NCBI GenBank assembly: GCA_034933145.1
Contig: JAYFOA010000068.1
Span: 1 to 12,363 of the forward strand
DNA from: Clostridiaceae bacterium
Lineage (GTDB): Bacteria > Bacillota > Clostridia > Oscillospirales > Butyricicoccaceae
Direction of reading: 5' to 3'
DNA length: 12,363 nucleotides
Shown: positions 630-11,353 of the stretch, piece after piece
How the letters are laid out: each line of letters starts with the position of its first letter
Position numbering within the stretch: the first letter of the stretch is position 1
Position numbers and translations under genes: made by a program
Notes under the pieces: model-generated
Seen by the model: only the letters and a program-made list of their open reading frames with translations
Told to the model about the DNA's origin: nothing
The model's database searches: none

Positions 630-1427
630 ATGAAAGTATTTATCAGCGCGGACATCGAGGGCGTTACCAACACGACCATCTGGGAGGAGACCGAAAAGGA
701 CCAGGCGGTCTATGCTGCCGCTGCCCGACAGATGACGGCGGAAGTCAAGGCCGCCTGCGAGGGTGCCATCGCCGCCGGTGCGGATTACATCCTGGTTAAC
801 GACGCCCACGACTATGCCGTCAATCTGGATTTGTCCCAGCTTCCCGAGTGCGCCGAGGTTATCCGCGGCTGGACCGGCAGCCCTTATGCTATGGTGGACG
901 GCATCGACAAGCGCTTTGACGCCGCCATGTTTGTCGGCTATCATTCCGCCGCCGGCCGCTGCGGAAATCCGCTGTCCCATACCTATACCACCAAGACCGT
1001 CTGGGTCAAATTAAATGGTGTCAAATGCAGCGAGTTCCGTCTCTATAGCTGGGCGGCGGCAATGGAAAATGTACCCACCGTCCTGCTTACCGGCGATAAA
1101 ATGTTGTGTGAGGACAGCAAGGACATCCATCCGATGTGCAAGTCCGTCGCCGTTAAGGACGGATTCGGCGGCCTGACCCGTTCCATCAGCCCGTCGCTGG
1201 CCTGCAAAAAAATCCGGGAAAATGCGGAGGCTGCCCTGAAACAGGACCTTTCCAAGGCGCTGTGCACCCTGCCGGAGCATTTTGTGTTTGAGGTATGCTA
1301 CAAGATTCATGAGCATGCCATCGCCCGCTCTTATTATCCCGGTTTCCAGCTGGTAGAAGACAATGTCATCCGCATGGAGACCGACAACTTTATGGACGTG
1401 CTGCGGGCTGTCGTCTTTGTCTTGTAA
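630..1427 (+). CDS. Peptidase M55 family D-aminopeptidase (DppA-like), copy 1
   Basis: 265-aa ORF with a good RBS. The N-terminus MKVFISADIEGV, the ILVNDAHD motif and VGYHSAAG...SHT resemble B. subtilis DppA (MKLYMSVDMEGISG..VLVNDSH..LGYHA). The size is typical for the M55 family. Confidence 0.8.
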   Translation: MKVFISADIEGVTNTTIWEETEKDQAVYAAAARQMTAEVKAACEGAIAAGADYILVNDAHDYAVNLDLSQLPECAEVIRGWTGSPYAMVDGIDKRFDAAMFVGYHSAAGRCGNPLSHTYTTKTVWVKLNGVKCSEFRLYSWAAAMENVPTVLLTGDKMLCEDSKDIHPMCKSVAVKDGFGGLTRSISPSLACKKIRENAEAALKQDLSKALCTLPEHFVFEVCYKIHEHAIARSYYPGFQLVEDNVIRMETDNFMDVLRAVVFVL

Positions 1428-1437
1428 GAGGTGGCGT

Positions 1438-2244
1438 ATGAAAGTCTATATCAGCTGTGACATTGAAGGCATTGCCACCACAACTCGCTGGGAGCAGACC
1501 CATACCGTCACGGAAAATGCCAAGGCCGCGCCCTATGCCCGCCAGATGACCGAGGAGGTCAATGCCGCCTGCGAGGGCGCCATCGCCGCCGGCGCGGATT
1601 ATATTTTGGTCAAGGACGCTCATGGATCCGGCACCAACATAGACATCTCCCGCTTTCCCGAATGCGTGGAAGTCATCCGCAGCGGATCGGGCAGCCCGTT
1701 TTCCATGGCGGATGGCGTCCAGACCGCCGATTTTGACGCGGCCATGTTCGTCGGCTATCACTCCGCCGCCGGCCGCTGCGGCAACCCGTTGTCCCATACC
1801 TTTACCACCAAGACCGTCTGGGTCAAATTGAACGGCGTAAAGTGCAGCGAATTCCGCCTTTTCAGCTGGGTGGCCGCCCTTTGCGGCGTGCCCACCGTTC
1901 TGCTGTCCGGCGACCGGATGCTGTGTGAGGACAGCCGAGATTTGCATCCGAAACTTCTTACCGTGCCGGTCAAAGACGGGCTTGGCGGCATGACCCGCTC
2001 GCTCCACCCTGTTCTGGCCTGCCGCCGGATCAAAGATGCCGCTGAGCGTGCGCTGCGGCAGGATCTCTCGGACGCGCTGTGCACCATGCCGGAGCATTTT
2101 GTGTTTGAAATCTGTTATAAAGAGCACCGGGATGCGGTGGCCCGGTCCTTCTTCCCGGGTTTTTCCCTTGTGGAGGACAATGTCATCCGTATGGAAACCG
2201 ACGCTTATTGGGAGGTACTCCGTAGCATCCGGTACATTCTCTGA
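1438..2244 (+). CDS. Peptidase M55 family D-aminopeptidase (DppA-like), copy 2 (tandem paralog)
   Basis: The ORF track shows 1363..2244. The ATG at 1438 (MKVYISCDIEGI) aligns with the copy-1 start and has RBS AGAGGTGG 3 nt after the copy-1 stop. The protein is about 60-65% identical to copy 1, with identical blocks AACEGAIAAGADYILV, AAMFVGYHSAAGRCGNPLSHT and TTKTVWVKLNGVKCSEFRL. Confidence 0.8.
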   Translation: MKVYISCDIEGIATTTRWEQTHTVTENAKAAPYARQMTEEVNAACEGAIAAGADYILVKDAHGSGTNIDISRFPECVEVIRSGSGSPFSMADGVQTADFDAAMFVGYHSAAGRCGNPLSHTFTTKTVWVKLNGVKCSEFRLFSWVAALCGVPTVLLSGDRMLCEDSRDLHPKLLTVPVKDGLGGMTRSLHPVLACRRIKDAAERALRQDLSDALCTMPEHFVFEICYKEHRDAVARSFFPGFSLVEDNVIRMETDAYWEVLRSIRYIL

Positions 2245-2293: not shown

Positions 2294-2314
2294 TTCTGTC
2301 TTTTTGCGCAACAT

Positions 2315-2342
2315 TTTCCAAACATATCGACAAAAACGCCGA
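2315..2342 (+). promoter_or_regulatory. Possible forespore sigma-G/sigma-F-type promoter for the SASP gene
   Basis: CATACTA at 2336-2342 matches the sigma-G -10 consensus CATnnTA. ACATA lies about 16-17 nt upstream, against the -35 consensus GnATR. SASP genes are canonical sigma-G targets. Confidence 0.35.
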
Positions 2343-2384
2343 ACATACTATGGACGTAAACTTCATGAAAAGGAGAAAAATCTC

Positions 2385-2582
2385 ATGACCAGCAACAACA
2401 ACAAGTCCAATATGACTTCTGCGGCCAAGGAGGCTCTGCATCAGTTCACGATGGAGACCGCCCGCGAGGTCGGCGTCAACCTGAAGGAAGGCTACAATGG
2501 CGACCTGACGAGTCGTCAGGCCGGCTCCATCGGCGGCCAGATGGTCAAAAAGCTTATCCAGCGCGCCGAGAGCAGCCTGTAA
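2385..2582 (+). CDS. Small acid-soluble spore protein, alpha/beta type (SASP)
   Basis: The ATG at 2385 is preceded by AAAGGAG. The 65-aa product MTSNNNKSN...AKEALHQFTMETAREVGVNLKEGYNGDLTSRQAGSIGGQMVKKLIQRAE matches the alpha/beta SASP signature (E-x-A-x-E-x-G-V...YNGDL(S/T)SRQ.GS(V/I)GG(E/Q)MVK(R/K)(L/M)(V/I)). The track ORF begins at 2304, but that upstream extension lacks an RBS. Confidence 0.85.
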   Translation: MTSNNNKSNMTSAAKEALHQFTMETAREVGVNLKEGYNGDLTSRQAGSIGGQMVKKLIQRAESSL

Positions 2583-2679: not shown

Positions 2680-4095
2680 TCATTCCGCTGCTTCCGCCGC
2701 CGGCTTTTCCGTCTGCGGCAGCTCCGCCGTTTCGGATGCCGCGGCCGGCTTTGCCAGATATTCCGGCAGCTGCATTCCTGCCATGTTGAACAGCTCCGCC
2801 ATCGGCGGAATGGATTTCATCATCCCGGACAAAAAGTTTGCCGTAGCGGGTGTGCCGTCCTTTCCGCCCATTCCGTCCCAAACCGTGACCTTGTCGATCT
2901 TGATATTCTTGATGGCCTCCACCTGTACCTTGATCAGGTCTTCCAGCTTGTCGGCCACCATCAGCCGGATTGCATCGTCTGCCTTTCCGCCCGCCGCCCG
3001 AACGATCTCCGCAAGACCGGCGGCCTGTTTGGTCAGGATTTCCTGCATGCCGCGGCCTTCCGCCTCCATTTTGGCGAAAATCGCGTCGGCCTCGCCGCGC
3101 GCCCTACGGCGCAGCTGCTCCGCGTCGGCTTCGGCGGCAATTTCCACCTTGCGTTTTTCGATCTCGGCCTTAACGATGACATCGGCCTCCTGCGTGGCCC
3201 TCTCCTTGTCGGCACGCACCAGTTCGGCAGCCTTTTCGGCAGAATACGCCTCTTCCAGCGCCTTTGCTGCCATGATCTTTTCGGCAGAGACTGCGCGGCG
3301 GTTGGCATCGGCTTCCCGTTCACGGCGGGTCGCATCCGAATCGGCGACCTGCGCCTTCGCATTGTTTTCACCCTGAATGGCCTCGGAGTTTGCTTTCGAA
3401 ACCTGAATTCTCTGCTCACTATTGGCGTTTGCTTCGCCGATGGCGCCTTCACGATCGGCCTCGGCCACCGATTTCTTGGCATCATTGATGGCCTTCGCGG
3501 CGGCCTCTTTGCCGAGGGCCGTGATGTACCCCGACTCATCGCTGATGTCGGTCACGTTTACGTTGATCAGGCGCAGACCGATCTTTTTCAGTTCGGTCTC
3601 TACGTTGCCGGATACGGCTTCCAGAAACTTATCCCGGTCGGTATTGATCTCCTCGATGTCCATGGTGGCAATAATCAGGCGCAGCTGACCGAAAATGATA
3701 TCCTTTGCCAGCTCCTGAATCTCGGTGAGTTTCAATCCGAGCAGGCGCTCTGCCGCATTCTGCATGACACCGGCCTCGGTGGAAATACCCACGGTAAAAC
3801 GGGAAGGAACATCGATGCGGATATTCTGCCGGGACAGCGCATTGGTCAGATCGACGCTGATGGACAGCGGTGTGAGATCCAGATATTCAAAGGACTGGAA
3901 AATCGGCCAGATGAATGCTGCGCCGCCGTGAATGCAGCGGGCCGAGCGGGAAGTCCCGTCCGGGTTGTTGCCGACCTTACCATATATGACCATAATTTTG
4001 TCGGACGGGCATTTGCGATACCGGGAAAGGATCACGATGATGGTAGTGATAAACAGCACGGCCACCACAAGAAGCAAAATGAGCAAACTATCCAT
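2680..4095 (-). CDS. floT: Flotillin (SPFH/band-7 domain; FloT/YuaG-like)
   Basis: 471-aa protein with an N-terminal TM segment (LLILLLVVAVLFITTIIVIL) and an SPFH domain. It has a long Ala/Glu-rich 'EA-repeat' coiled-coil region and a C-terminal VWDGMGG segment. Overall it is collinear with B. subtilis FloT. Its start overlaps the nfeD stop (ATGGATAG), and the RBS GGAGGT lies inside nfeD. Confidence 0.85.
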   Translation of the reverse strand: MDSLLILLLVVAVLFITTIIVILSRYRKCPSDKIMVIYGKVGNNPDGTSRSARCIHGGAAFIWPIFQSFEYLDLTPLSISVDLTNALSRQNIRIDVPSRFTVGISTEAGVMQNAAERLLGLKLTEIQELAKDIIFGQLRLIIATMDIEEINTDRDKFLEAVSGNVETELKKIGLRLINVNVTDISDESGYITALGKEAAAKAINDAKKSVAEADREGAIGEANANSEQRIQVSKANSEAIQGENNAKAQVADSDATRREREADANRRAVSAEKIMAAKALEEAYSAEKAAELVRADKERATQEADVIVKAEIEKRKVEIAAEADAEQLRRRARGEADAIFAKMEAEGRGMQEILTKQAAGLAEIVRAAGGKADDAIRLMVADKLEDLIKVQVEAIKNIKIDKVTVWDGMGGKDGTPATANFLSGMMKSIPPMAELFNMAGMQLPEYLAKPAAASETAELPQTEKPAAEAAE

Positions 4096-4792
4096 TTTTT
4101 ACCTCCGTCTCTTGTTTTTTAAGTTGTGTTTCCGCAGGAATGACGATCAGGGTATCCTCATCCTCCATCCCTACCACCCGTACGAACTCGCCGGGTTTTA
4201 AATCGCGGTCTGAGGTTGTCACCGCACCGCATTCGGAAAAGCGGCCCTGAAAGGTCAGCGTGACCTTTCCCTCACTTTTTCCGCCGGCCGGAATCCGGAT
4301 ATACACCTTCGCCGTCTTTCCGACCGCATTGCTCAGCAGCTGATTGCCTGCGGACTGAAGCCTGGTTGCTTCCCGGAACAGCAGGGCGATCCCGTACAAT
4401 GCCGCCGTCCCCGCAGATATTGCCAGCGTGACGGTCAGTATGGGCGGAAGACCCGCACCGTCCAGCACAATGCCGGTCCATCCGCCAACCGATAGAAATG
4501 CGACGATCCCGCGGATGCTGAACAGGGCAAGCCCGTCTCCGCCGTCTGCCGTCCCGTCATCAGGTGCATCCATTTCCTCTGTCCCATCGGGTCCGCCGGC
4601 GGCATCGATTCCATCGATCCCGTCGGGGCCGTCGCCAATACCGTCGACTGATGTCGAGTCGCCGGTATCCGTATCATTCCCCAGTCCGATGATGACCAGT
4701 ACCGTCTGAATGACCAGCACCAGCGTTGCGGGCAGCGCGGCAAAAGCAAAAATTCTCTGTAGACTTGAGAGCGCTTCCCACCATTCCCGCAT
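4088..4792 (-). CDS. NfeD-family membrane protein (YuaF-like), partner of flotillin
   Basis: 234-aa protein with N-terminal and central hydrophobic helices and a C-terminal beta-rich OB-fold-like region (KVYIRIPAGGKSEGKVTLTFQGRFSECGAVTTSDRDLKPGEFVRVVGMEDEDTLIV). It lies immediately upstream of flotillin and is translationally coupled to it (8-nt overlap). This is the canonical nfeD-floT (yuaF-yuaG) arrangement. RBS AAAGGGGGG is upstream. Confidence 0.8.
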   Translation of the reverse strand: MREWWEALSSLQRIFAFAALPATLVLVIQTVLVIIGLGNDTDTGDSTSVDGIGDGPDGIDGIDAAGGPDGTEEMDAPDDGTADGGDGLALFSIRGIVAFLSVGGWTGIVLDGAGLPPILTVTLAISAGTAALYGIALLFREATRLQSAGNQLLSNAVGKTAKVYIRIPAGGKSEGKVTLTFQGRFSECGAVTTSDRDLKPGEFVRVVGMEDEDTLIVIPAETQLKKQETEVKNG

Positions 4793-4874
4793 GATATACC
4801 CCCCTTTCTGATGGTTTTCATATATAAACCGGCCGGCAGCAAACGCTTTCGACTGCGCACACCGCCGGCATTTA

Positions 4875-5438
4875 TTATTCTCTCAGCTGGTCGAGCATGC
4901 GCTCAGCGTCGTCTTTCATGCAGGCGCAGCTGTAACCTGTCACCAGGATTTCCAGCGCCCTGCGAAGCCGTTCCGCCGCCCCGGGAATTGTCTCTTTGTA
5001 TTGCCGCACGCACCCATCGATGGCATCATGCAGCTTTCGGCGGTCCCCCAGATCAGGGGCTCCGCTCTCTGTAATGATCCGACAGAAGTATTCATACAGC
5101 ACCGACTCCGGAATAATGTCATCGGAGAGGTCGTCAACCCTGCCGTTGATATAGGACAGAAGAAAAGCAATGGATTCGAGTGAAAATACCCCGCGCAGCA
5201 TATTGATAATCAGGATCCGCGACACCTGATCGATGCCATATCGTTTCTTGATCGGAGGAGAAACCCAGCCGCGCTTCACCCAGTTCTGAAGCGCCGGCGC
5301 ATCCAGTCCCGTGATCTCCCGAACCTGGGAGAGCATCAGTCCCGAAGTTGCCGTAAAGATTCCTGAAAGGAATCCGCACCCACCCGGTCCCGATCCGTTC
5401 GCCGCGGGAATCACCGTTCCAGGTATATTCATCCGCAT
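4875..5438 (-). CDS. Hypothetical protein, probable MerR-like HTH / DUF1836-family protein
   Basis: 187-aa ORF with the same orientation as nfeD-floT. The segment LSQVREITGLDAPALQNWVKRGWVSPPIKKRYGIDQVSRILIINMLR resembles the DUF1836 / MerR-type helix-turn-helix signature found in Firmicutes. The RBS GGAAAGGGGG abuts the start. The true start may instead be the internal Met at +2 codons (MNIPG...). Confidence 0.65.
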   Translation of the reverse strand: MRMNIPGTVIPAANGSGPGGCGFLSGIFTATSGLMLSQVREITGLDAPALQNWVKRGWVSPPIKKRYGIDQVSRILIINMLRGVFSLESIAFLLSYINGRVDDLSDDIIPESVLYEYFCRIITESGAPDLGDRRKLHDAIDGCVRQYKETIPGAAERLRRALEILVTGYSCACMKDDAERMLDQLRE

Positions 5439-5463
5439 CCCCCTTTCCTTCGTCCTTGTCTCT

Positions 5464-5492
5464 ATTAAAACACAAGTTCATATGAATGTCAA
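5464..5492 (-). promoter_or_regulatory. Candidate sigma-A promoter for the DUF1836-nfeD-floT cluster (TTGACA -17- TTTAAT)
   Basis: Minus-strand TTGACA (plus 5487-5492) and TTTAAT (plus 5464-5469) with a 17-nt spacer. The promoter is embedded in an AT-rich inverted repeat. Confidence 0.35.
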
Positions 5493-5537
5493 TAGAGTTT
5501 ATATGAACTTTTTATATTTTCTTTTGAATTCTTTGTG

Positions 5538-6362
5538 CTAGCAGTTGCCTGTATATACATATCGCAGATGCTTCGCCGCGATGTCCCGCAGCCGATAGAT
5601 TGTCTGTACCGGCGTCGGACTGCGGTCGCATAACCGATACTGGGGGAAAAATCGGCTGATATGCAGGGGAATGGACATATCCACCGAGGCAATCCATGCG
5701 CCGATCGCCTCCATATCCTCATCCGTATCATTTTCTCCCGGTATAACCAGCGTCGTCACCTCCACATGGCATCGCGGTGCGGAAAGGGCAATGGTGCGCC
5801 GGACGCTTTCAAAATCCCCTCCCACAAAATCATAAAACGTCTGCGAAAAGCCCTTTAGATCCACGTTCATTGCATCGATGTGCGGCAGCAGTTCCTCCAG
5901 CGGCCCTTCGCATACCGTCCCGTTGGTGATGAGGACGTTTTTCATCCCGGCGGCATGGATCAGCTCTGCACAGTCACGAACGTATTCGTATCCCACCAGC
6001 GGCTCATTATAGGTAAAGGCCAATCCGATATTTCCGCGGCTCTGCAGCGCGCAGGCCCGCGCGACCAACTCTTCCGCCGGGAAAAAGACCGTCTCCGCCT
6101 CCGCGCCCGCCATGGAAATGTCGCTGTTCTGGCAGAAGGGGCAGCGCAGGTTGCAGCCGTAGCTGCCGACGGACAGAAGATAGCTTCCGGGATAAAACCG
6201 TGCCAGCGGCTTTTTCTCAACGGGGTCGAGAGCCATCGAGGTCAGCTTTCCATAATTATCGCAGACAACCCGGCCGCCGACGTTTTTCCGCGCGCGGCAG
6301 AGGCCGGTCTGTCCTTCCTCCAGCGCGCAGTGGTGAAAACAAACAGGGCAGATCGCTCTCAT
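5538..6362 (-). CDS. AmmeMemoRadiSam-system radical SAM enzyme (pyruvate formate-lyase activase-like)
   Basis: 274-aa protein. The N-terminus MRAICPVCFHHCALEEGQTGLCRARKN...DPVEKKPLARFYPGSYLLSVGSYGCNLRCPFCQNSDIS carries the CxxxCxxC radical-SAM cluster motif in the family-specific GCNLRCxFCQN context. Its start overlaps the stop of the upstream Memo-AMMECR1 gene (ATGA). Confidence 0.85.
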   Translation of the reverse strand: MRAICPVCFHHCALEEGQTGLCRARKNVGGRVVCDNYGKLTSMALDPVEKKPLARFYPGSYLLSVGSYGCNLRCPFCQNSDISMAGAEAETVFFPAEELVARACALQSRGNIGLAFTYNEPLVGYEYVRDCAELIHAAGMKNVLITNGTVCEGPLEELLPHIDAMNVDLKGFSQTFYDFVGGDFESVRRTIALSAPRCHVEVTTLVIPGENDTDEDMEAIGAWIASVDMSIPLHISRFFPQYRLCDRSPTPVQTIYRLRDIAAKHLRYVYTGNC

Positions 6363-7744
6363 AAATGCCGCACCGCCTGAAAACGGGAAAGTTCTACATC
6401 CTCCCGCAGGCCGATGCCGGCCTTCTGCCTGCAGATGGCAATCTGTTCCTCCACGGTATCGACGCCCTCCAAATCGGGCAGCAGTAGCCCCCGGCGTGTA
6501 CCGCGAGACACGATGACGCCGTACTTTTTCGGGTCAAGCTCGGTTTCTGAGGAAACCGGCTCCGGCGCGGTCAGCACGTCAACGCTATAAACGAGTTTCG
6601 GCAGTTCCGCCGCCGTCACGGGCGGAAACCGGGGATCCTCCGTCCCGGCGGAGACGGCATTGCGCAGGATCTCTTTTGCCAGGATAGACTCCGTCGGTGC
6701 AAACGTACCGATGCAGCCGCGCAGCAGGCCGTCTTTTTTCAATGAAACAAAGGCTCCGGCTCTTTGTGTCAGCAGTTCCGGCGGCAGCTGATCGGGCATC
6801 TCGGCCCGTTTCCCCGTGCGGACATAGGTTTCCAACGACAGCCGCGCCAGTCGGACGTAGGGATCTTCCTTCGCCTTGCTGCGCGCCAGCATCGCTGCTT
6901 CCTCCGCTTCCAGCGCCGCGCCGAACTGCCTTCTGGCATCCTCACCCGCCGGCAGAAAGACCGCCGTGGCATAGCCGACGCCGAAGGGGCCTTCATAGGA
7001 CAGCAGCTCGCTTTTTACCTTTTTTCCGTCCATCGTGCCAGCCATAATCTGAAAGGCACGCAAGCCACATTCGCCCGCTGCATCGCAAAATGCAGGGGAA
7101 AGGTGCAGCAGCGCGCCGAAATCTCCGGCCGCAAGTGCCTCTGTCACGAGCCGATCGAAGACCGGCCCTTCGGGCGCGAAACCGTAGGGCCCATCCTCCG
7201 CCAGCCGATGGGAAAGATCGCCGCTGGCGATGATCGCCGTCCTGCGGGAAAGCTTCTCCGACACCTCCGCGATGCATTTCCCCAATGCATAATGAGTTAC
7301 CGGCGGCAGGCCGGACAGACCAATACGCACAATCCGGCAGGTAAGTCCCGTTTCGCCCAGAAAGCGCAGAGGGATCACCGAAGCGTGGTCCAGCGAGGCA
7401 TTCCGTTCCCCCTGGGTGCCGGCGGGTACATCCTTTTCCGCACACAGCCGAGACAGCGCCTGCGTAAACTCCGCGTCGTAGGACGCCTCCACCCGCACGC
7501 CCGGAACCCCAAACTGCGAAAGATCGCCCCATGCCCTCACGCCCGGGGAAATGTGGAACCAGTCCGCATACATCACCGCATGGGGGCTGAGCAGCACAAC
7601 CGTATCCGGCCGAAGCTCCGCCAAGCGCATCATCGCTGTGCGATAGGCGTCGATGGTTTTCTGAATTTTCTTTTCCTCTCCCCGGCCGACTTCCGGCAGG
7701 ATAAGCGGCGGATGGGGCACCGCAATCGCGCCCAGAACAGACAT
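6359..7744 (-). CDS. Fusion protein: N-terminal Memo/LigB-type (class III extradiol dioxygenase-like) domain + C-terminal AMMECR1 domain
   Basis: 461-aa protein. The N-terminal ~270 aa (MSVLGAIAVPHPPLILPEV..., LLSPHAVMYADW, IIASGDLSH) resemble the Memo/LigB superfamily (compare Memo APHAGYTY and SSDFCH). The C-terminal ~190 aa carry the AMMECR1 hallmark LRGCIG (…AFVSLKKDGLLRGCIGTFAPT…). Strong RBS AAGGGAGGA. Coupled to the radical SAM gene by a 4-nt overlap. Confidence 0.85.
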   Translation of the reverse strand: MSVLGAIAVPHPPLILPEVGRGEEKKIQKTIDAYRTAMMRLAELRPDTVVLLSPHAVMYADWFHISPGVRAWGDLSQFGVPGVRVEASYDAEFTQALSRLCAEKDVPAGTQGERNASLDHASVIPLRFLGETGLTCRIVRIGLSGLPPVTHYALGKCIAEVSEKLSRRTAIIASGDLSHRLAEDGPYGFAPEGPVFDRLVTEALAAGDFGALLHLSPAFCDAAGECGLRAFQIMAGTMDGKKVKSELLSYEGPFGVGYATAVFLPAGEDARRQFGAALEAEEAAMLARSKAKEDPYVRLARLSLETYVRTGKRAEMPDQLPPELLTQRAGAFVSLKKDGLLRGCIGTFAPTESILAKEILRNAVSAGTEDPRFPPVTAAELPKLVYSVDVLTAPEPVSSETELDPKKYGVIVSRGTRRGLLLPDLEGVDTVEEQIAICRQKAGIGLREDVELSRFQAVRHL

Positions 7745-7758
7745 GTGAGTCCTCCCTT

Positions 7759-8229
7759 TCAGTCAATCAGTTCGGTCAGTGTTGCATGTGCGTAGGCGAT
7801 CAACTGCTCCGGTGGCAGAATAAGCTGCAAGCCGCGCTGTCCGGCGCTGACCGCGATTTCAGCCCACAGTGCGGCGGTTTCGTCCATATAGGTCGGCAAT
7901 TTTTTCTTCATCCCGATGGGCGAGCAGCCGCCGCGAAGATAGCCGGTCAACGGAAGCAGTTCTTTCAGATGAATCAGCTCCACCTTCTTGTTGCCCGAAG
8001 CCGCGGCCGCACGCCGAAGATCGAGTTCTTCCGCCACCGGAATACAAAAAACCAGCGGCCCGGTTTTATCCCCGCGGGCGACCAGCGTCTTAAACACCTG
8101 CTCCGGCGGCATCCCGATCGCCGCCGCCGCGTGAACACCGGACAAGTCGTTTTCATCATATGCATATTCCGCCGTGCGGTAAGTGATCTTTTCCGCATCC
8201 AGCAGGCGCATGGCATTGGTTCTGACCAT
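7759..8229 (-). CDS. ybaK: YbaK/ProX-family aminoacyl-tRNA deacylase (Cys-tRNA(Pro) deacylase-like)
   Basis: 157-aa protein starting at MVRTNAMRLLDAEKI, with RBS AGAGGTGA upstream. The block KKVELIHLKELLPLTGYLRGGCSPIGMKKKLPTYMDETAA aligns with E. coli YbaK [39 protein letters not shown]. The ORF-track N-terminal extension to 8430 has no RBS or homology. The stop lies 14 nt before the next gene's start. Confidence 0.85.
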   Translation of the reverse strand: MVRTNAMRLLDAEKITYRTAEYAYDENDLSGVHAAAAIGMPPEQVFKTLVARGDKTGPLVFCIPVAEELDLRRAAAASGNKKVELIHLKELLPLTGYLRGGCSPIGMKKKLPTYMDETAALWAEIAVSAGQRGLQLILPPEQLIAYAHATLTELID

Positions 8230-8254
8230 GAAATCACCTCTATTCTTTACGATT

Positions 8255-8290
8255 ATTATAGCACAAATCCACTGTCGGAAAACGAAAAGC
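8255..8290 (-). promoter_or_regulatory. Candidate promoter of the ybaK-Memo/AMMECR1-rSAM operon (extended -10 TGcTATAAT)
   Basis: Minus-strand ...ttccgacagtggatttgTGcTATAATaatcg gives a perfect -10 with a TG motif (plus 8255-8263). The -35 is weak (TTTTCC/TCGTTT). It lies about 25 nt upstream of the ybaK ATG. Confidence 0.45.
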
Positions 8291-8462
8291 TGACGCCGCC
8301 GACCTCCCCTGCTGTGCCTCTCGGTAAGCAGGAACATGTGCCGCTTTTCTTCTCCGCCCCATTTGCCGACCGGTATCTCAAAAGTACCGAACAACAGGTG
8401 GATACATACGCATTTCCCATGAAAAGGCAACCACCGGTTGACAAAATAACAGGCCGAGCTGA

Positions 8463-8491
8463 TAGACAGCCGCCCTCGTTTCCCTTATACT
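8463..8491 (+). promoter_or_regulatory. Candidate sigma-A promoter for the XRE-family membrane protein (TAGACA -17- TATACT)
   Basis: TAGACA at 8463-8468, a 17-nt spacer, then TATACT at 8486-8491. Also a perfect TTGACA at 8438-8443 with a poorer -10 partner. RBS AGGGAGGA at 8504-8511 precedes the ATG at 8516. Confidence 0.35.
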
Positions 8492-8515
8492 GAAGGCAGC
8501 AAGGGAGGAACGGAA

Positions 8516-9787
8516 ATGAGCATTGGCAGCCGGATCGCCGAGATCCGAAAAAACAGCAGACTGTCGCAGGAGGCGTTCGGCGCCTCTCTTGACGTTTCCC
8601 GGCAGGCGATATCCAAATGGGAGTCCGACCAGAGCCTTCCGGATGTGGAAAAGCTGATCTCCATAGGACGCATCTATGGCGTTTCCATCGGCTGGATTCT
8701 GGGAATGGAAGAAGAAAAAGCTCCAACCGGAGAGCTTACCGAGGAACAGATGCGCATGGTAAAAGAGATCGTGCGGCAGTATATCGAGGCGCTTCCCAAA
8801 CCAGGCGTGGGCGCAGATCATGATCACGAAAAAAAACACTCATGGCTGCAGCGGCGGCTCCCGCTTCTGTCGGCCCTTCTGATTATTGCACTGATCCTTT
8901 GGTGCGGTCAGATCTCCGGCAGACTCCGGGATATGCGGTCGCAGCAGAATAACCTTCTCAATGATATCAACGGTATTCGCTATTCTGTCGACGACCAGAT
9001 CAGCGGTATTGCAAACCGGGTGGAAGATATTCTGAAGGCGCAGAACTCCCTCCTGGCGGACTATTCCGCGGAGGTTTCATCCACGGATCTGCGTGCGGGG
9101 ACGATCAGCTTTTCCGTAAGCGCCGTTCCCAAAACTTATACCCCGGGTATGAAGGTCGAATTCGTCGCAGATGACGGTGCTCAGCCGGTTACCGTCGTCG
9201 GATCAGAGGGGGCCGGACACACATTTTCGGCATCGGTCACCTGTGGATTGACCGATGGCATTTCGCTCTCCGCGGTACTGCAGGAGGACGGCAAAGCACA
9301 GACACAGCTGCTGGATACCTACCAAAATCGCCTGGATGACAGCTATCTGATTCTCTCAAGCGAGTATATTTCCGGAACGCTTTGGAGCGAAACGCCGGAA
9401 ACGCTGACGCGCAGCCCCGAAATCGCAACCGATGTGTATTTTGCAAATGCCCAGAAAGTAGAAAAATCCTCGGAAAGCCTTACGGCAGAGGCCGTCAAAA
9501 TCTGCCTGTTCGTCAATGGCGAAAAGGCCGCGGAAACTGCCGGCAGCCCGATACCCGAAGCCGCCGGTTCTGCGGAGGGTGAAGGCTCCTATGGCTTTCA
9601 CCTGAAGATTCCAACGGACTTTGCCGCGACGCTGCAGGAGGGGGATGAAGTGGTGGTCGCCATCGTCGCCACAGACAGCTGCGGCAGAAGCTATTGCGTT
9701 TCTTCTTCTTCTTATGCATTAAAAAATGGAATGCTTGATTTCGTTTCGGCGCGCAATGTATGGGATCGCACCCTGGGCGTAGACTAA
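8516..9787 (+). CDS. Membrane-anchored XRE (Cro/C1-type) HTH transcriptional regulator with an uncharacterized extracytoplasmic C-terminal domain
   Basis: 423-aa protein. The N-terminus IAEIRKNSRLSQEAFGASLDVSRQAISKWESDQSLPDVEKLISIGRIYGVSIGWILG is a canonical HTH_3 domain. A single predicted TM helix LPLLSALLIIALILWCGQI follows at about residue 115-135. After it comes a ~290-aa Ser/Thr/Asp-rich domain with no motif I recognise. Confidence 0.8.
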   Translation: MSIGSRIAEIRKNSRLSQEAFGASLDVSRQAISKWESDQSLPDVEKLISIGRIYGVSIGWILGMEEEKAPTGELTEEQMRMVKEIVRQYIEALPKPGVGADHDHEKKHSWLQRRLPLLSALLIIALILWCGQISGRLRDMRSQQNNLLNDINGIRYSVDDQISGIANRVEDILKAQNSLLADYSAEVSSTDLRAGTISFSVSAVPKTYTPGMKVEFVADDGAQPVTVVGSEGAGHTFSASVTCGLTDGISLSAVLQEDGKAQTQLLDTYQNRLDDSYLILSSEYISGTLWSETPETLTRSPEIATDVYFANAQKVEKSSESLTAEAVKICLFVNGEKAAETAGSPIPEAAGSAEGEGSYGFHLKIPTDFAATLQEGDEVVVAIVATDSCGRSYCVSSSSYALKNGMLDFVSARNVWDRTLGVD

Positions 9788-11028: not shown

Positions 11029-11084
11029 TGTGGATACAAATGAACAGCGAGCGTATCCGCACCTGACCGTGCCGGCGTGAAAGC

Positions 11085-11353
11085 GCCGAGGGAATCGGAT
11101 GAAAATTCCGAGCTGTCCCAGTAACCGTGAAGCGGACGAATGGGAATTACGCCACTGCCGAACCGCGATCGCCCTCCGGCGGTCGTTTTGGCGGGAAGGC
11201 CCCAGGAGAATGATGCCAAGCCGGGAGACCTGTTTACGCGTCGGCAGCCGCCGTATGGATTTTCAATCCGTCCGGCCGCTGCCTGGGACCTCTGGGTTTG
11301 GGCATGGCTAAAAGCGAATGTCCGCAGCGCTGCTGCGGTCGTTACGCGTGTTT
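11085..11353 (+). ncRNA. Cobalamin (AdoCbl/B12) riboswitch
   Basis: Conserved elements are present: GGGAAucGGaUGaAAAUuCC...GCuGuCCC at 11090-11125, GCCACUG at 11151-11157, GGGAAGGC at 11194-11201 and the B12-box AAGCCGGGAGACCUG at 11217-11231. It is upstream of a BtuF-like binding-protein gene and is followed by an intrinsic terminator. The boundaries are approximate. Confidence 0.65.

What the first reader, a model, noticed from the sequence alone, without database searches (positions are those of the whole stretch)
5538..8229. ybaK + Memo/AMMECR1 fusion + radical SAM: an AmmeMemoRadiSam-type operon coupled to a tRNA-editing deacylase
Three tightly coupled minus-strand genes make up this cluster:
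- a YbaK-type Cys-tRNA(Pro) deacylase homolog;
- a 461-aa protein that fuses a Memo/LigB-like domain to an AMMECR1 domain (LRGCIG motif);
- a radical SAM enzyme with the GCNLRCPFCQN cluster motif.
The gaps are 14 nt with an RBS over the ybaK stop, then a 4-nt ATGA overlap. The AMMECR1 + Memo + rSAM trio is a computationally defined system conserved from archaea to humans. I know of no established biochemical function or substrate for it. Co-transcription with an aminoacyl-tRNA editing enzyme is a concrete lead that the system may act on tRNA, aminoacyl-tRNA or an aminoacyl/Cys-containing substrate. This is the most likely place for undescribed biology in the window.
Basis: partly seen in the sequence, partly recalled or inferred. 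Interest (0 to 1): 0.8.

Follow-up and report, generated by a model that had tools for sequence, protein, structure and literature searches.

The report
Known AMMECR1–radical SAM pair beside ybaK
The three genes are real and correctly identified, but the radical SAM pair is an already catalogued, very common anaerobe system of unknown function, and its position next to the tRNA-editing gene ybaK occurs only in this one species, so it gives no clue to function.

Summary
Observation confirmed. Three minus-strand genes sit at the stated coordinates:
- ybaK, 7759-8229
- a 461-aa LigB-type + AMMECR1 fusion, 6359-7744
- a 274-aa radical SAM enzyme, 5538-6362

The junctions are a 14-nt gap with an AAGGGAGG ribosome-binding site, then an ATGA overlap. 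All quoted motifs are present. Curated models place them in TIGR00011 (YbaK), TIGR04335 (system protein A) and TIGR04337 (system radical SAM enzyme), each above its cut-off. PflA and NrdG models score far below theirs. The N-terminal domain is LigB/class III extradiol-dioxygenase-like, with an invariant His/His/Glu triad. It is not a strict Memo domain.

ybaK lies next to the fusion only in the window and in a 98%-identical metagenome contig.
- It is absent from 80 species-representative loci (52-62% identity).
- It is absent from the six closest other relatives (65-68% identity).
- None of 70 assessable YbaK-seeded loci carries the fusion or the radical SAM gene.

No third gene recurs beside the pair. 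The AMMECR1 + dioxygenase + radical SAM neighbourhood, the fusion, and an RNA-modification hypothesis were published in 2007.

Verdict: an ordinary member of a known, biochemically uncharacterised system that happens to sit downstream of a housekeeping ybaK.

The parts
7759..8229 (-). ybaK, a Cys-tRNA(Pro) trans-editing deacylase (156 aa). It is a housekeeping gene and not part of the AMMECR1/radical SAM system.
   Evidence: TIGR00011 189.9 bits against a cut-off of 153.25. PF04073 83 bits. It aligns with E. coli YbaK (2DXA, E 4e-24) and H. influenzae YbaK (1DBU), with the FKTL lysine and the GGxSPxG motif conserved.
8255..8263 (-). Candidate extended -10 promoter element (TGcTATAAT) upstream of ybaK. 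It is the only strong promoter-like site upstream of the three genes.
   Evidence: Custom scan and the sequence. The stricter two-hexamer scan found no minus-strand promoter in 4700-8700. This is a consensus match only, with no functional test.
7751..7758 (-). Ribosome-binding site AAGGGAGG for the fusion gene, inside the 14-nt ybaK-fusion gap.
   Evidence: Read directly from the sequence. The same 14-nt junction is present in L081.
6359..7744 (-). LigB-type + AMMECR1 fusion protein (461 aa), annotated as 'AmmeMemoRadiSam system protein A' or 'A/B'.
   Evidence: Profile hits. More than 8000 homologues at E<=1e-10, of which the 120 best listed are full-length; source names include 'AmmeMemoRadiSam system protein A/B'. 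AlphaFold2 model with pLDDT 91.4 and pTM 0.81.
6968..7729 (-). LigB/class III extradiol-dioxygenase-like domain (residues 6-259). H11, H55 and E225 are the putative metal triad and H179 the putative catalytic base.
   Evidence: PF02900 131.3 bits. The four residues align with the metal and catalytic residues of HpaD (8IQ8) and aminophenol dioxygenase beta (3VSG_B). They are invariant in 50 homologues. Foldseek gives TM 0.84 to 5HEE, 0.7-0.8 to extradiol dioxygenases and 0.53 to MEMO1. TIGR04336 scores 25.5 bits against a cut-off of 26 here, and 49 of 50 homologues match it at E<=0.001.
6371..6856 (-). AMMECR1 domain (residues 297-458), with RGCIG (Cys344, codon 6715-6713) and DPRF (D370, R372, F373).
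   Evidence: PF01871 155.2 bits; TIGR04335 129.8 bits against a cut-off of 99. The motifs are invariant in 50 homologues and correspond to the RGChG and DxRa signatures of PMC2034487. Structural match to PH0010 (1VAJ): rmsd 1.7, 37% identity.
5538..6362 (-). AmmeMemoRadiSam-system radical SAM enzyme (274 aa).
   Evidence: TIGR04337 257.3 bits against a cut-off of 220. The next best model is PflA, at 53.4 bits against 231.75. The gene lies downstream of the fusion in 68 of 80 species-representative loci (directly in 67, about 2 kb away in L049) and in all six closest relatives, where it has the same 4-nt overlap.
6132..6155 (-). CX3CX2C motif (C70, C74, C77) for the radical SAM [4Fe-4S] cluster.
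   Evidence: Read from the sequence. 100% conserved in 63 non-identical homologues.
6297..6350 (-). N-terminal C5-x2-C8-x3-C12-x9-C22 motif of the radical SAM enzyme. It is a putative second metal or Fe-S site.
   Evidence: The four cysteines are 97-100% conserved in 63 homologues. Its role is inferred and was not tested.

Best explanation
The core is a canonical, self-contained two-gene module. One gene encodes a fusion of a LigB-type metal domain with an AMMECR1 domain. It is translationally coupled to the family-specific, PflA-like radical SAM enzyme (TIGR04337). This is the fused form of the catalogued 'AmmeMemoRadiSam' system, which is very common in anaerobes.

In this one species the module lies 14 nt downstream of ybaK, a housekeeping Cys-tRNA(Pro) deacylase gene. 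It is probably read through from the ybaK promoter. That juxtaposition is a recent, lineage-specific genome rearrangement and not a functional coupling.

Inferred mechanism of the module (not shown here):
1. Under anoxic conditions the radical SAM enzyme cleaves SAM at its CX3CX2C [4Fe-4S] cluster, producing a 5'-deoxyadenosyl radical.
2. The radical abstracts a hydrogen atom from a substrate held by the fusion protein.
3. The invariant AMMECR1 cysteine (Cys344, in RGCIG, beside DPRF) acts as a covalent or thiyl relay.
4. The His11/His55/Glu225 metal site of the LigB domain binds a ring or vicinal-heteroatom moiety of the same substrate.

No pathway-specific gene ever accompanies the pair. The substrate is therefore most likely a universal cell constituent. 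An RNA base is the published prediction, but it remains unproven.
For: Shown:
- Family membership above curated cut-offs.
- Fusion and radical SAM adjacency in 68 of 80 species-representative loci. Five of the 12 exceptions are cut by contig ends.
- An identical ATGA-type 4-nt overlap in the six closest relatives, each preceded by its own intergenic region of 135-540 nt.
- ybaK is adjacent only in the window and in L081, the 98%-identical relative.
- 0 of 80 fusion-seeded loci have a ybaK hit at E<=1e-3; 74 of them hold at least 600 nt upstream.
- 0 of 80 YbaK-seeded loci (56-76% identity, 70 with at least 300 nt downstream) have a fusion or radical SAM hit.
- There is no shared synteny with other window genes.
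- Clustering of all neighbouring ORFs finds only the fusion (88 of 88) and the radical SAM gene (77 of 88) recurring.
- Upstream neighbours fall into 89 Pfam families in 74 loci, with at most 4 loci per family. Downstream neighbours fall into 88 families in 62 loci, also at most 4 per family.
- The catalytic-type residues are invariant.
- The only strong promoter-like element is upstream of ybaK.

From the literature:
- The neighbourhood, the fusion and the conserved-cysteine/RNA-modification proposal are in PMC2034487.
- PF01871 occurs in 50.7% of anaerobes against 3.4% of aerobes (PMC13386939).
Against: - The 14-nt gap and the lack of an internal promoter mean that ybaK and the module probably are co-transcribed in this species. 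Some regulatory coupling therefore exists here.
- Absence of conservation does not strictly exclude a functional link in this lineage.
- The mechanistic steps (hydrogen abstraction, cysteine relay, role of the metal site, RNA substrate) are inference from motifs and published predictions. No biochemical data exist.
- The loci sampled are the best 80 of about 600 matches and all carry the fused form. Unfused systems were not surveyed.
Confidence: 0.85

Rival explanations
1. Functional coupling. The AMMECR1/LigB/radical SAM module acts on tRNA, aminoacyl-tRNA or a Cys-containing aminoacyl substrate together with YbaK, and the shared operon reflects this.
For: - The junction is tight (14 nt) and there is no internal promoter-like site.
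- The arrangement is conserved in the 98%-identical relative.
- AMMECR1 has independent published RNA-related context: a predicted RNA base modification (PMC2034487) and an archaeal neighbourhood with NFACT and the Mut7-C RNase (PMC4075521).
- A seryl-tRNA synthetase gene lies upstream in 2 of 74 loci, L001 and L012.
Against: - ybaK adjacency is absent in 80 of 80 diverse loci, in six of the six closest relatives, and in 0 of 70 assessable YbaK-seeded loci.
- The 98%-identical relative is the same species, so it is not an independent observation.
- Two aminoacyl-tRNA synthetase neighbours in 74 loci is about what chance gives for abundant housekeeping genes.
Confidence: 0.05
2. The radical SAM enzyme acts on a protein rather than on a small molecule or RNA. 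By analogy with PflA acting on PflB, it would install a radical or a post-translational modification on the fusion protein itself, for example at or near the invariant RGCIG cysteine, or on a peptide. The fusion protein would then be the radical-bearing catalyst.
For: - The closest characterised relatives of the radical SAM enzyme are glycyl-radical-enzyme activases. PflA is the best solved-structure match (E 3e-8), and the best non-family NCBIfam hits are PflA, YjjW and NrdG.
- Radical SAM domains related to those of the Memo-AMMECR1 systems occur in predicted peptide-processing systems (PMC7159879).
- The strict two-gene self-sufficiency, with translational coupling, fits an enzyme and its activase.
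Against: - The fusion has no glycyl-radical (RVxG[FWY]) domain.
- The similarity to activases is far below the family cut-offs.
- No experimental data exist.
Confidence: 0.15
3. Ordinary catabolic genes. The 461-aa protein would be an aromatic ring-cleavage (LigB/HpaD-type) dioxygenase with an unrelated C-terminus, and the radical SAM enzyme a generic anaerobic activase.
For: - Some database names call homologues '3,4-dihydroxyphenylacetate 2,3-dioxygenase' or '2-aminophenol 1,6-dioxygenase beta subunit'.
- The 2-His-1-Glu triad is intact.
Against: - The HpaD equivalog scores 41.5 bits against a cut-off of 316.
- The C-terminus is a full AMMECR1 domain above the TIGR04335 cut-off.
- No aromatic-catabolism genes recur nearby.
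- The hosts are anaerobes, and the partner radical SAM enzyme (a superfamily with oxygen-labile [4Fe-4S] clusters, from general knowledge) is family-specific (TIGR04337, 257 bits against 220) (PMC13386939).
Confidence: 0.02

Closest known systems
AmmeMemoRadiSam system (NCBIfam/TIGRFAMs TIGR04335 protein A, TIGR04336 protein B, TIGR04337 radical SAM enzyme). This is the AMMECR1 + ring-opening dioxygenase/Memo + radical SAM neighbourhood of Balaji & Aravind 2007 (PMC2034487), treated again in Burroughs et al. 2019 (J Biol Chem 294:10211), which I cite from memory and from reference lists because the paper is not held.
   Same: - The AMMECR1 domain and the radical SAM enzyme score above the curated cut-offs.
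- The genes are adjacent and translationally coupled.
- The RGChG and DxRa motifs and the CX3CX2C motif are present.
- The fusion of AMMECR1 to the dioxygenase-like partner was already noted in 2007.
- Sources annotate homologues as 'AmmeMemoRadiSam system protein A/B'.
   Different: - The B component is not a separate Memo-type protein. It is an N-terminal LigB-type domain, at 25.5 bits against the TIGR04336 cut-off of 26, and structurally nearer to TK2203 and extradiol dioxygenases than to MEMO1.
- In this species only, the pair is appended to ybaK.
YbaK/EbsC Cys-tRNA(Pro) deacylase (TIGR00011; E. coli YbaK 2DXA, H. influenzae HI1434 1DBU)
   Same: It is a full-length match above the equivalog cut-off. 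The conserved lysine (FKTL) and the GGxSPxG motif are present.
   Different: Nothing notable. Its position directly upstream of the AMMECR1/radical SAM pair is peculiar to this species.
Class III (LigB-type) extradiol dioxygenases and TK2203 (5HEE)
   Same: The fold matches (TM 0.7-0.84), and the His/His/Glu metal triad and the catalytic His are conserved.
   Different: - Scores are far below every dioxygenase equivalog cut-off.
- The domain is fused to AMMECR1 and partnered with a radical SAM enzyme (a superfamily generally oxygen-labile) in anaerobes.
- O2-dependent ring cleavage is therefore unlikely. This last point is inference.
Glycyl-radical-enzyme activases (PflA TIGR02493, NrdG TIGR02495)
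   Same: It is a small radical SAM enzyme with an N-proximal CX3CX2C motif, and PflA is the closest solved structure.
   Different: - It scores 53 and 40 bits against cut-offs of 232 and 131.
- It has an extra conserved N-terminal four-cysteine motif.
- No glycyl-radical enzyme is encoded nearby.

Membership tests
AmmeMemoRadiSam system | AMMECR1-family protein A scoring above the TIGR04335 cut-off | tested here: met
   129.8 bits against a cut-off of 99. 50 of 50 homologues match.
AmmeMemoRadiSam system | Family-specific radical SAM enzyme scoring above the TIGR04337 cut-off, with a CX3CX2C motif | tested here: met
   257.3 bits against a cut-off of 220. C70, C74 and C77 are 100% conserved.
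AmmeMemoRadiSam system | Memo-type protein B scoring above the TIGR04336 cut-off | tested here: inconclusive
   - 25.5 bits against a cut-off of 26.
- 49 of 50 fused homologues match at E<=0.001, the best at 1e-9.
- Pfam Memo gives no hit and Pfam LigB gives 131 bits.
- By structure, TM is 0.53 to MEMO1 and 0.84 to TK2203.

The domain occupies the place of B but is LigB-like.
AmmeMemoRadiSam system | Components encoded together (adjacent or fused) across genomes | tested here: met
   The radical SAM gene lies downstream of the fusion in 68 of 80 loci (directly in 67, about 2 kb away in L049) and in six of the six closest relatives.
AMMECR1 (PF01871) | RGChG cysteine motif and DxRa motif (PMC2034487) | tested here: met
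   R342-G343-C344-I345-G346 and D370-P-R372-F373 are present. Of these, I345 is nearly invariant (at least 90%) and the others are invariant in 50 homologues.
YbaK Cys-tRNA(Pro) deacylase (TIGR00011) | Equivalog score above the cut-off, with a conserved active-site lysine and the GGxSPxG motif | tested here: met
   189.9 bits against a cut-off of 153.25. The alignment to 2DXA shows FKTL and GGCSPIG.
YbaK Cys-tRNA(Pro) deacylase (TIGR00011) | Deacylation of Cys-tRNA(Pro) | not testable with these tools
   This needs a biochemical assay.
Proposed 'ybaK-coupled AmmeMemoRadiSam operon' | Recurrent ybaK linkage in independent lineages | tested here: not met
   - Fusion-seeded loci: 0 of 80.
- Closest relatives (65-68% identity): 0 of 6.
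- Assessable YbaK-seeded loci: 0 of 70.
- The only other case is the 98%-identical L081.
LigB-type extradiol dioxygenase | 2-His-1-carboxylate metal triad plus a catalytic His | tested here: met
   H11, H55, E225 and H179 align with HpaD and AmnB residues and are invariant.
LigB-type extradiol dioxygenase | Score above a characterised dioxygenase equivalog (for example HpaD, TIGR02298) | tested here: not met
   41.5 bits against a cut-off of 315.95.
Glycyl-radical activases (PflA/NrdG) | Score above the TIGR02493 or TIGR02495 cut-off | tested here: not met
   53.4 bits against 231.75, and 40.5 bits against 131.15.

The most novel reading that the evidence does not exclude
The ybaK link could be meaningful after all. 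AMMECR1 is linked in archaea to NFACT and the Mut7-C RNase (PMC4075521). From my own knowledge, NFACT is the RqcH/NEMF family that recruits tRNA during ribosome quality control. On this reading the bacterial LigB-AMMECR1 + radical SAM module would act on a tRNA or aminoacyl-tRNA species, and this species would have placed it under ybaK's promoter because both serve translational quality control. The window's organism would then offer a natural operon for testing the long-standing open function of AMMECR1 and Memo.
Probability: 0.05. Interest if true: 0.7.

Novelty: already known. Interest (0 to 1): 0.2.

Why it matters
The AMMECR1/Memo-or-LigB/radical SAM system is a real open problem.
- The AMMECR1 domain is present in about half of anaerobic prokaryotes (PMC13386939).
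- It is homologous to a human disease gene.
- I found no experimental function for it.

This locus adds nothing that makes the problem more tractable, because the one new clue, ybaK linkage, is not conserved. The useful result is negative. The ybaK lead should not be followed as comparative-genomic evidence. The fused module behaves as a free-standing two-gene unit with no conserved partner, which points to a universal rather than a pathway-specific substrate.

Tried and rejected
- **Third partner:** I looked for any recurrent third partner of the pair by clustering all ORFs of 88 loci and by Pfam scans of the nearest upstream and downstream neighbours. Nothing exceeded 4 loci in the Pfam scans. 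In the clustering, the largest real clusters were an ABC-type ATPase in 12 of 88 loci and an AI-2E transporter in 9 of 88, the latter mostly among close relatives.
- **Synteny:** I searched for synteny of the window's other genes around YbaK or fusion homologues, to reconstruct how the junction arose. Only L081 shares them.
- **Terminator:** I looked for an intrinsic terminator after the radical SAM gene. The scan count equals the shuffled expectation, and the 3' region does not fold better than shuffles (z = -0.59). The 3' end of the transcript is therefore undefined, and it may run on into the DUF1836 gene 99 nt downstream.
- **RNA leader:** I looked for an RNA leader, such as a T-box, upstream of ybaK. 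Rfam found only a cobalamin riboswitch elsewhere in the window, and there are no tRNA genes.
- **Burroughs et al. 2019:** I tried to read the paper by DOI and by PMC6664185. It is not held, so I cite it from memory and from reference lists only.
- **Literature:** I searched for an experimental function of AMMECR1 or the system and found none.
- **Co-folding:** Co-folding of the fusion with the radical SAM enzyme could not be done, because the structure tool predicts single chains only.


Full report
**1. Observation**

The ORF table and the minus-strand sequence confirm three co-directional genes.
- ybaK: 7759-8229, 156 aa. The ATG at 8229 is preceded by GAGGTGA at 8240-8234.
- A 461-aa gene: 6359-7744.
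- A 274-aa gene: 5538-6362.

The ybaK stop (7761-7759) is followed by a 14-nt gap that consists mostly of the ribosome-binding site AAGGGAGG (7758-7751). The second and third genes overlap by ATGA (6362-6359). The quoted motifs are present: LRGCIG, with Cys344 at 6715-6713, and GCNLRCPFCQN, with C70, C74 and C77.

**2. Identities**

NCBIfam and Pfam searches give the following.

| Protein | Model | Bits | Cut-off |
|---|---|---|---|
| YbaK | TIGR00011 | 189.9 | 153.25 |
| Fusion, C-terminal half | PF01871 AMMECR1 | 155.2 | 25 |
| Fusion, C-terminal half | TIGR04335 | 129.8 | 99 |
| Fusion, N-terminal half | PF02900 LigB | 131.3 | 26.3 |
| Fusion, N-terminal half | TIGR04336 (Memo-type protein B) | 25.5 | 26 |
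| Fusion, N-terminal half | PF01875 Memo | no hit | - |
| Radical SAM enzyme | TIGR04337 | 257.3 | 220 |
| Radical SAM enzyme | PflA (TIGR02493) | 53.4 | 231.75 |
| Radical SAM enzyme | NrdG (TIGR02495) | 40.5 | 131.15 |

The radical SAM enzyme is therefore the family-specific enzyme and not a generic activase.

YbaK aligns with E. coli and H. influenzae YbaK. The FKTL lysine and the GGxSPxG motif are intact.

An AlphaFold2 model of the fusion is confident (pLDDT 91.4, pTM 0.81). Foldseek against the PDB gives these matches.
- The N-domain is closest to TK2203 (5HEE, TM 0.84).
- It also matches class III extradiol dioxygenases at TM 0.7-0.8.
- MEMO1 is much further away, at TM about 0.53.
- The C-domain matches the AMMECR1 protein PH0010 (1VAJ; rmsd 1.7, 37% identity).

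Alignment to HpaD and aminophenol dioxygenase maps H11, H55 and E225 onto the metal triad and H179 onto the catalytic histidine. All four are invariant in 50 homologues, as are R342, G343, C344, G346 and D370, R372, F373. At family level, 49 of 50 fused homologues still match TIGR04336 at E<=0.001. The N-domain thus occupies the place of 'protein B' while being LigB-like.

The radical SAM enzyme has the canonical CX3CX2C motif. It also has an N-terminal C-x2-C-x3-C-x9-C motif that is 97-100% conserved in 63 non-identical homologues. PflA, the closest solved structure, aligns only from residue 68 onward, so this N-terminal segment is not covered by that match.

**3. Is the ybaK linkage recurrent?**

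This is the crux of the finding, and the answer is no.

*Starting from the fusion.*
- The protein has more than 8000 homologues at E<=1e-10. The best is 98% identical and the next is only 68% identical.
- A scan of species-representative genomes returned 80 loci at 52-62% identity. They come from Clostridia, Lachnospiraceae, Oscillospiraceae, Christensenellales, Selenomonadales, Coriobacteriia, Sphaerochaetaceae and Deferribacteraceae.
- tblastn with the window's YbaK found no hit in any of the 80, at E<=1e-5 or at E<=1e-3. 74 of them hold at least 600 nt upstream of the fusion.
- The radical SAM gene lies downstream in 68 of 80 (directly in 67; about 2 kb away in L049). Of the other 12, five are cut by contig ends, one holds only fragments, and five, mostly Selenomonadaceae, lack it despite having room.

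*The closest relatives.*
- The 98%-identical protein (L081) shows the same GAPDH, HTH, ybaK, fusion order and the same 14-nt junction. It is evidently the same species.
- The six next-closest proteins (65-68% identity: P0002, P0003, P0004, P0008, P0011, P0017) all carry fusion + radical SAM with the 4-nt overlap. None has ybaK.
- Their upstream genes are a fucose isomerase, a GNAT acetyltransferase, Rce1-like proteases, a GH39 glycosidase, an AdoMet decarboxylase and a glycosyltransferase. Each is separated from the fusion by 135-540 nt.

*Starting from YbaK.*
- 80 metagenome loci encode YbaK at 56-76% identity.
- 70 of them have at least 300 nt downstream.
- None contains the fusion or the radical SAM gene.

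No other window gene is syntenic with either set.

**4. Any other conserved partner?**

- Clustering all ORFs of 88 loci shows only the fusion (88 of 88) and the radical SAM gene (77 of 88) recurring. The other clusters found in 12 or more loci are shadow ORFs overlapping the pair (one lies just upstream of the fusion), apart from one real ABC-type ATPase cluster in 12 loci.
- The nearest upstream neighbours fall into 89 Pfam families in 74 loci, with at most 4 loci per family.
- The nearest downstream neighbours fall into 88 families in 62 loci, with at most 4, for TatD.

The pair is a free-standing bicistronic unit.

**5. Transcription in this species**

- The only strong promoter-like element upstream of the three genes is an extended -10, TGcTATAAT, at 8263-8255, about 26 nt before the ybaK start.
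- Nothing comparable lies between there and the fusion start, and the 14-nt gap leaves no room for a terminator.
- Co-transcription from the ybaK promoter is therefore likely. This is inference from consensus matches only.
- No convincing terminator follows the radical SAM gene. The DUF1836 gene lies 99 nt downstream on the same strand.

**6. What is known**

- Balaji & Aravind 2007 (PMC2034487) described the persistent prokaryotic neighbourhood of AMMECR1 with a radical SAM enzyme and a ring-opening dioxygenase, and gene fusions with the dioxygenase. They also described the RGChG and DxRa motifs and proposed an uncharacterised RNA base modification that uses the conserved cysteine.
- Burroughs & Aravind 2014 (PMC4075521) added an archaeal AMMECR1-NFACT-Mut7-C neighbourhood.
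- Kaur et al. [quoted passage not shown] 2019. That paper is not held.
- AMMECR1 is listed among the priority uncharacterised archaeal families (PMC6393860).
- PF01871 carries the largest importance value among the anaerobe-indicator Pfam families listed in one study, occurring in 50.7% of anaerobes against 3.4% of aerobes (PMC13386939).
- My literature searches found no experimental function.

**7. Mechanism**

Shown here:
- family memberships;
- translational coupling;
- invariant putative catalytic residues;
- the distribution of the AMMECR1 domain (PF01871) in anaerobes, from the literature;
- self-sufficiency of the pair.

Inferred:
- The PflA-like radical SAM enzyme generates a 5'-deoxyadenosyl radical, which activates a substrate held by the fusion protein.
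- The AMMECR1 cysteine acts as a covalent or thiyl relay.
- The LigB His/His/Glu metal site binds part of the same substrate, without O2-dependent ring cleavage.
- The lack of any pathway-specific neighbour suggests a ubiquitous substrate. RNA is the published guess.
- A protein or self-modification model, by analogy with the activases, is a live alternative.

**8. Verdict**

The locus is a routine member of an already catalogued system. The ybaK coupling is a species-specific accident of gene order with no comparative support. Interest is low for this window, although the system's unknown function remains a real open question.

Noticed in passing
window 11064-11251 (+), with an ORF from about 11440 to the window end: A cobalamin riboswitch (RF00174, 74 bits against a gathering score of 31.5) is followed by a lipoprotein-type ORF that runs off the window end. 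In the 98%-identical contig L081 the corresponding genes are Peripla_BP_2, FecCD and ABC_tran. This looks like a BtuFCD-like B12 uptake operon.
   Followed up: partly
window 1 to about 210 (-): The N-terminus of an S-adenosylmethionine synthetase (MetK-like, [26 protein letters not shown]...) runs off the left end of the window. Identified by eye from the translation. Rfam at the gathering threshold found no SAM riboswitch upstream of it.
   Followed up: no
window 630-1427 and 1438-2244 (+): Two tandem paralogous M55 D-aminopeptidase (DppA-type) genes, each a full-length PF04951 match (267 and 259 bits).
   Followed up: no
window 2304-2582 (+): An alpha/beta-type small acid-soluble spore protein (PF00269, 87.7 bits). 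The host is therefore likely an endospore-forming Firmicute.
   Followed up: no
window 2680-5438 (-): A DUF1836 gene (4875-5438) lies upstream of two further same-strand genes that overlap each other by 8 nt: a 234-aa ORF with no Pfam hit (4088-4792; NfeD-like only by eye) and a flotillin/SPFH gene (2680-4095). The DUF1836 gene is 99 nt downstream of the radical SAM gene on the same strand, with no clear terminator between them.
   Followed up: partly
window 8516-9787 (+): A 423-aa protein with an N-terminal XRE-type HTH domain (PF01381) and a long C-terminal region with no Pfam hit. It is divergent from ybaK across a 286-nt intergenic region. It is conserved next to ybaK only in L081.
   Followed up: no
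window 6297-6350 (-); homologues in L001-L087: The system's radical SAM enzymes carry a conserved N-terminal C-x2-C-x3-C-x9-C motif (97-100% in 63 sequences). PflA aligns only from residue 68 onward, so this segment is not covered by that match. It may be an auxiliary metal or Fe-S site.
   Followed up: partly
L014, L056, L065, L071, L003; L027:7418-7663: Several loci, mostly Selenomonadaceae, have the LigB-AMMECR1 fusion but no radical SAM gene within 5-6 kb (L003 holds only about 0.8 kb) downstream. L027 keeps only short radical SAM fragments. The fusion may persist without an adjacent radical SAM partner in some lineages.
   Followed up: no
L012:4665-5951 (+), L001:3431-4714 (+): A seryl-tRNA synthetase gene lies upstream of the fusion in two loci. 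In L012 the gap is 50 nt and the gene is on the same strand. This is 2 of 74 loci, possibly a single event in related Christensenellales-like genomes, and is compatible with chance.
   Followed up: partly
L082-L086, L168-L171 (downstream of the radical SAM gene): An AI-2E family transporter (PF01594) lies convergently just downstream of the radical SAM gene in four of the six closest relatives, and in 9 of 88 loci overall. It is absent from the window.
   Followed up: partly
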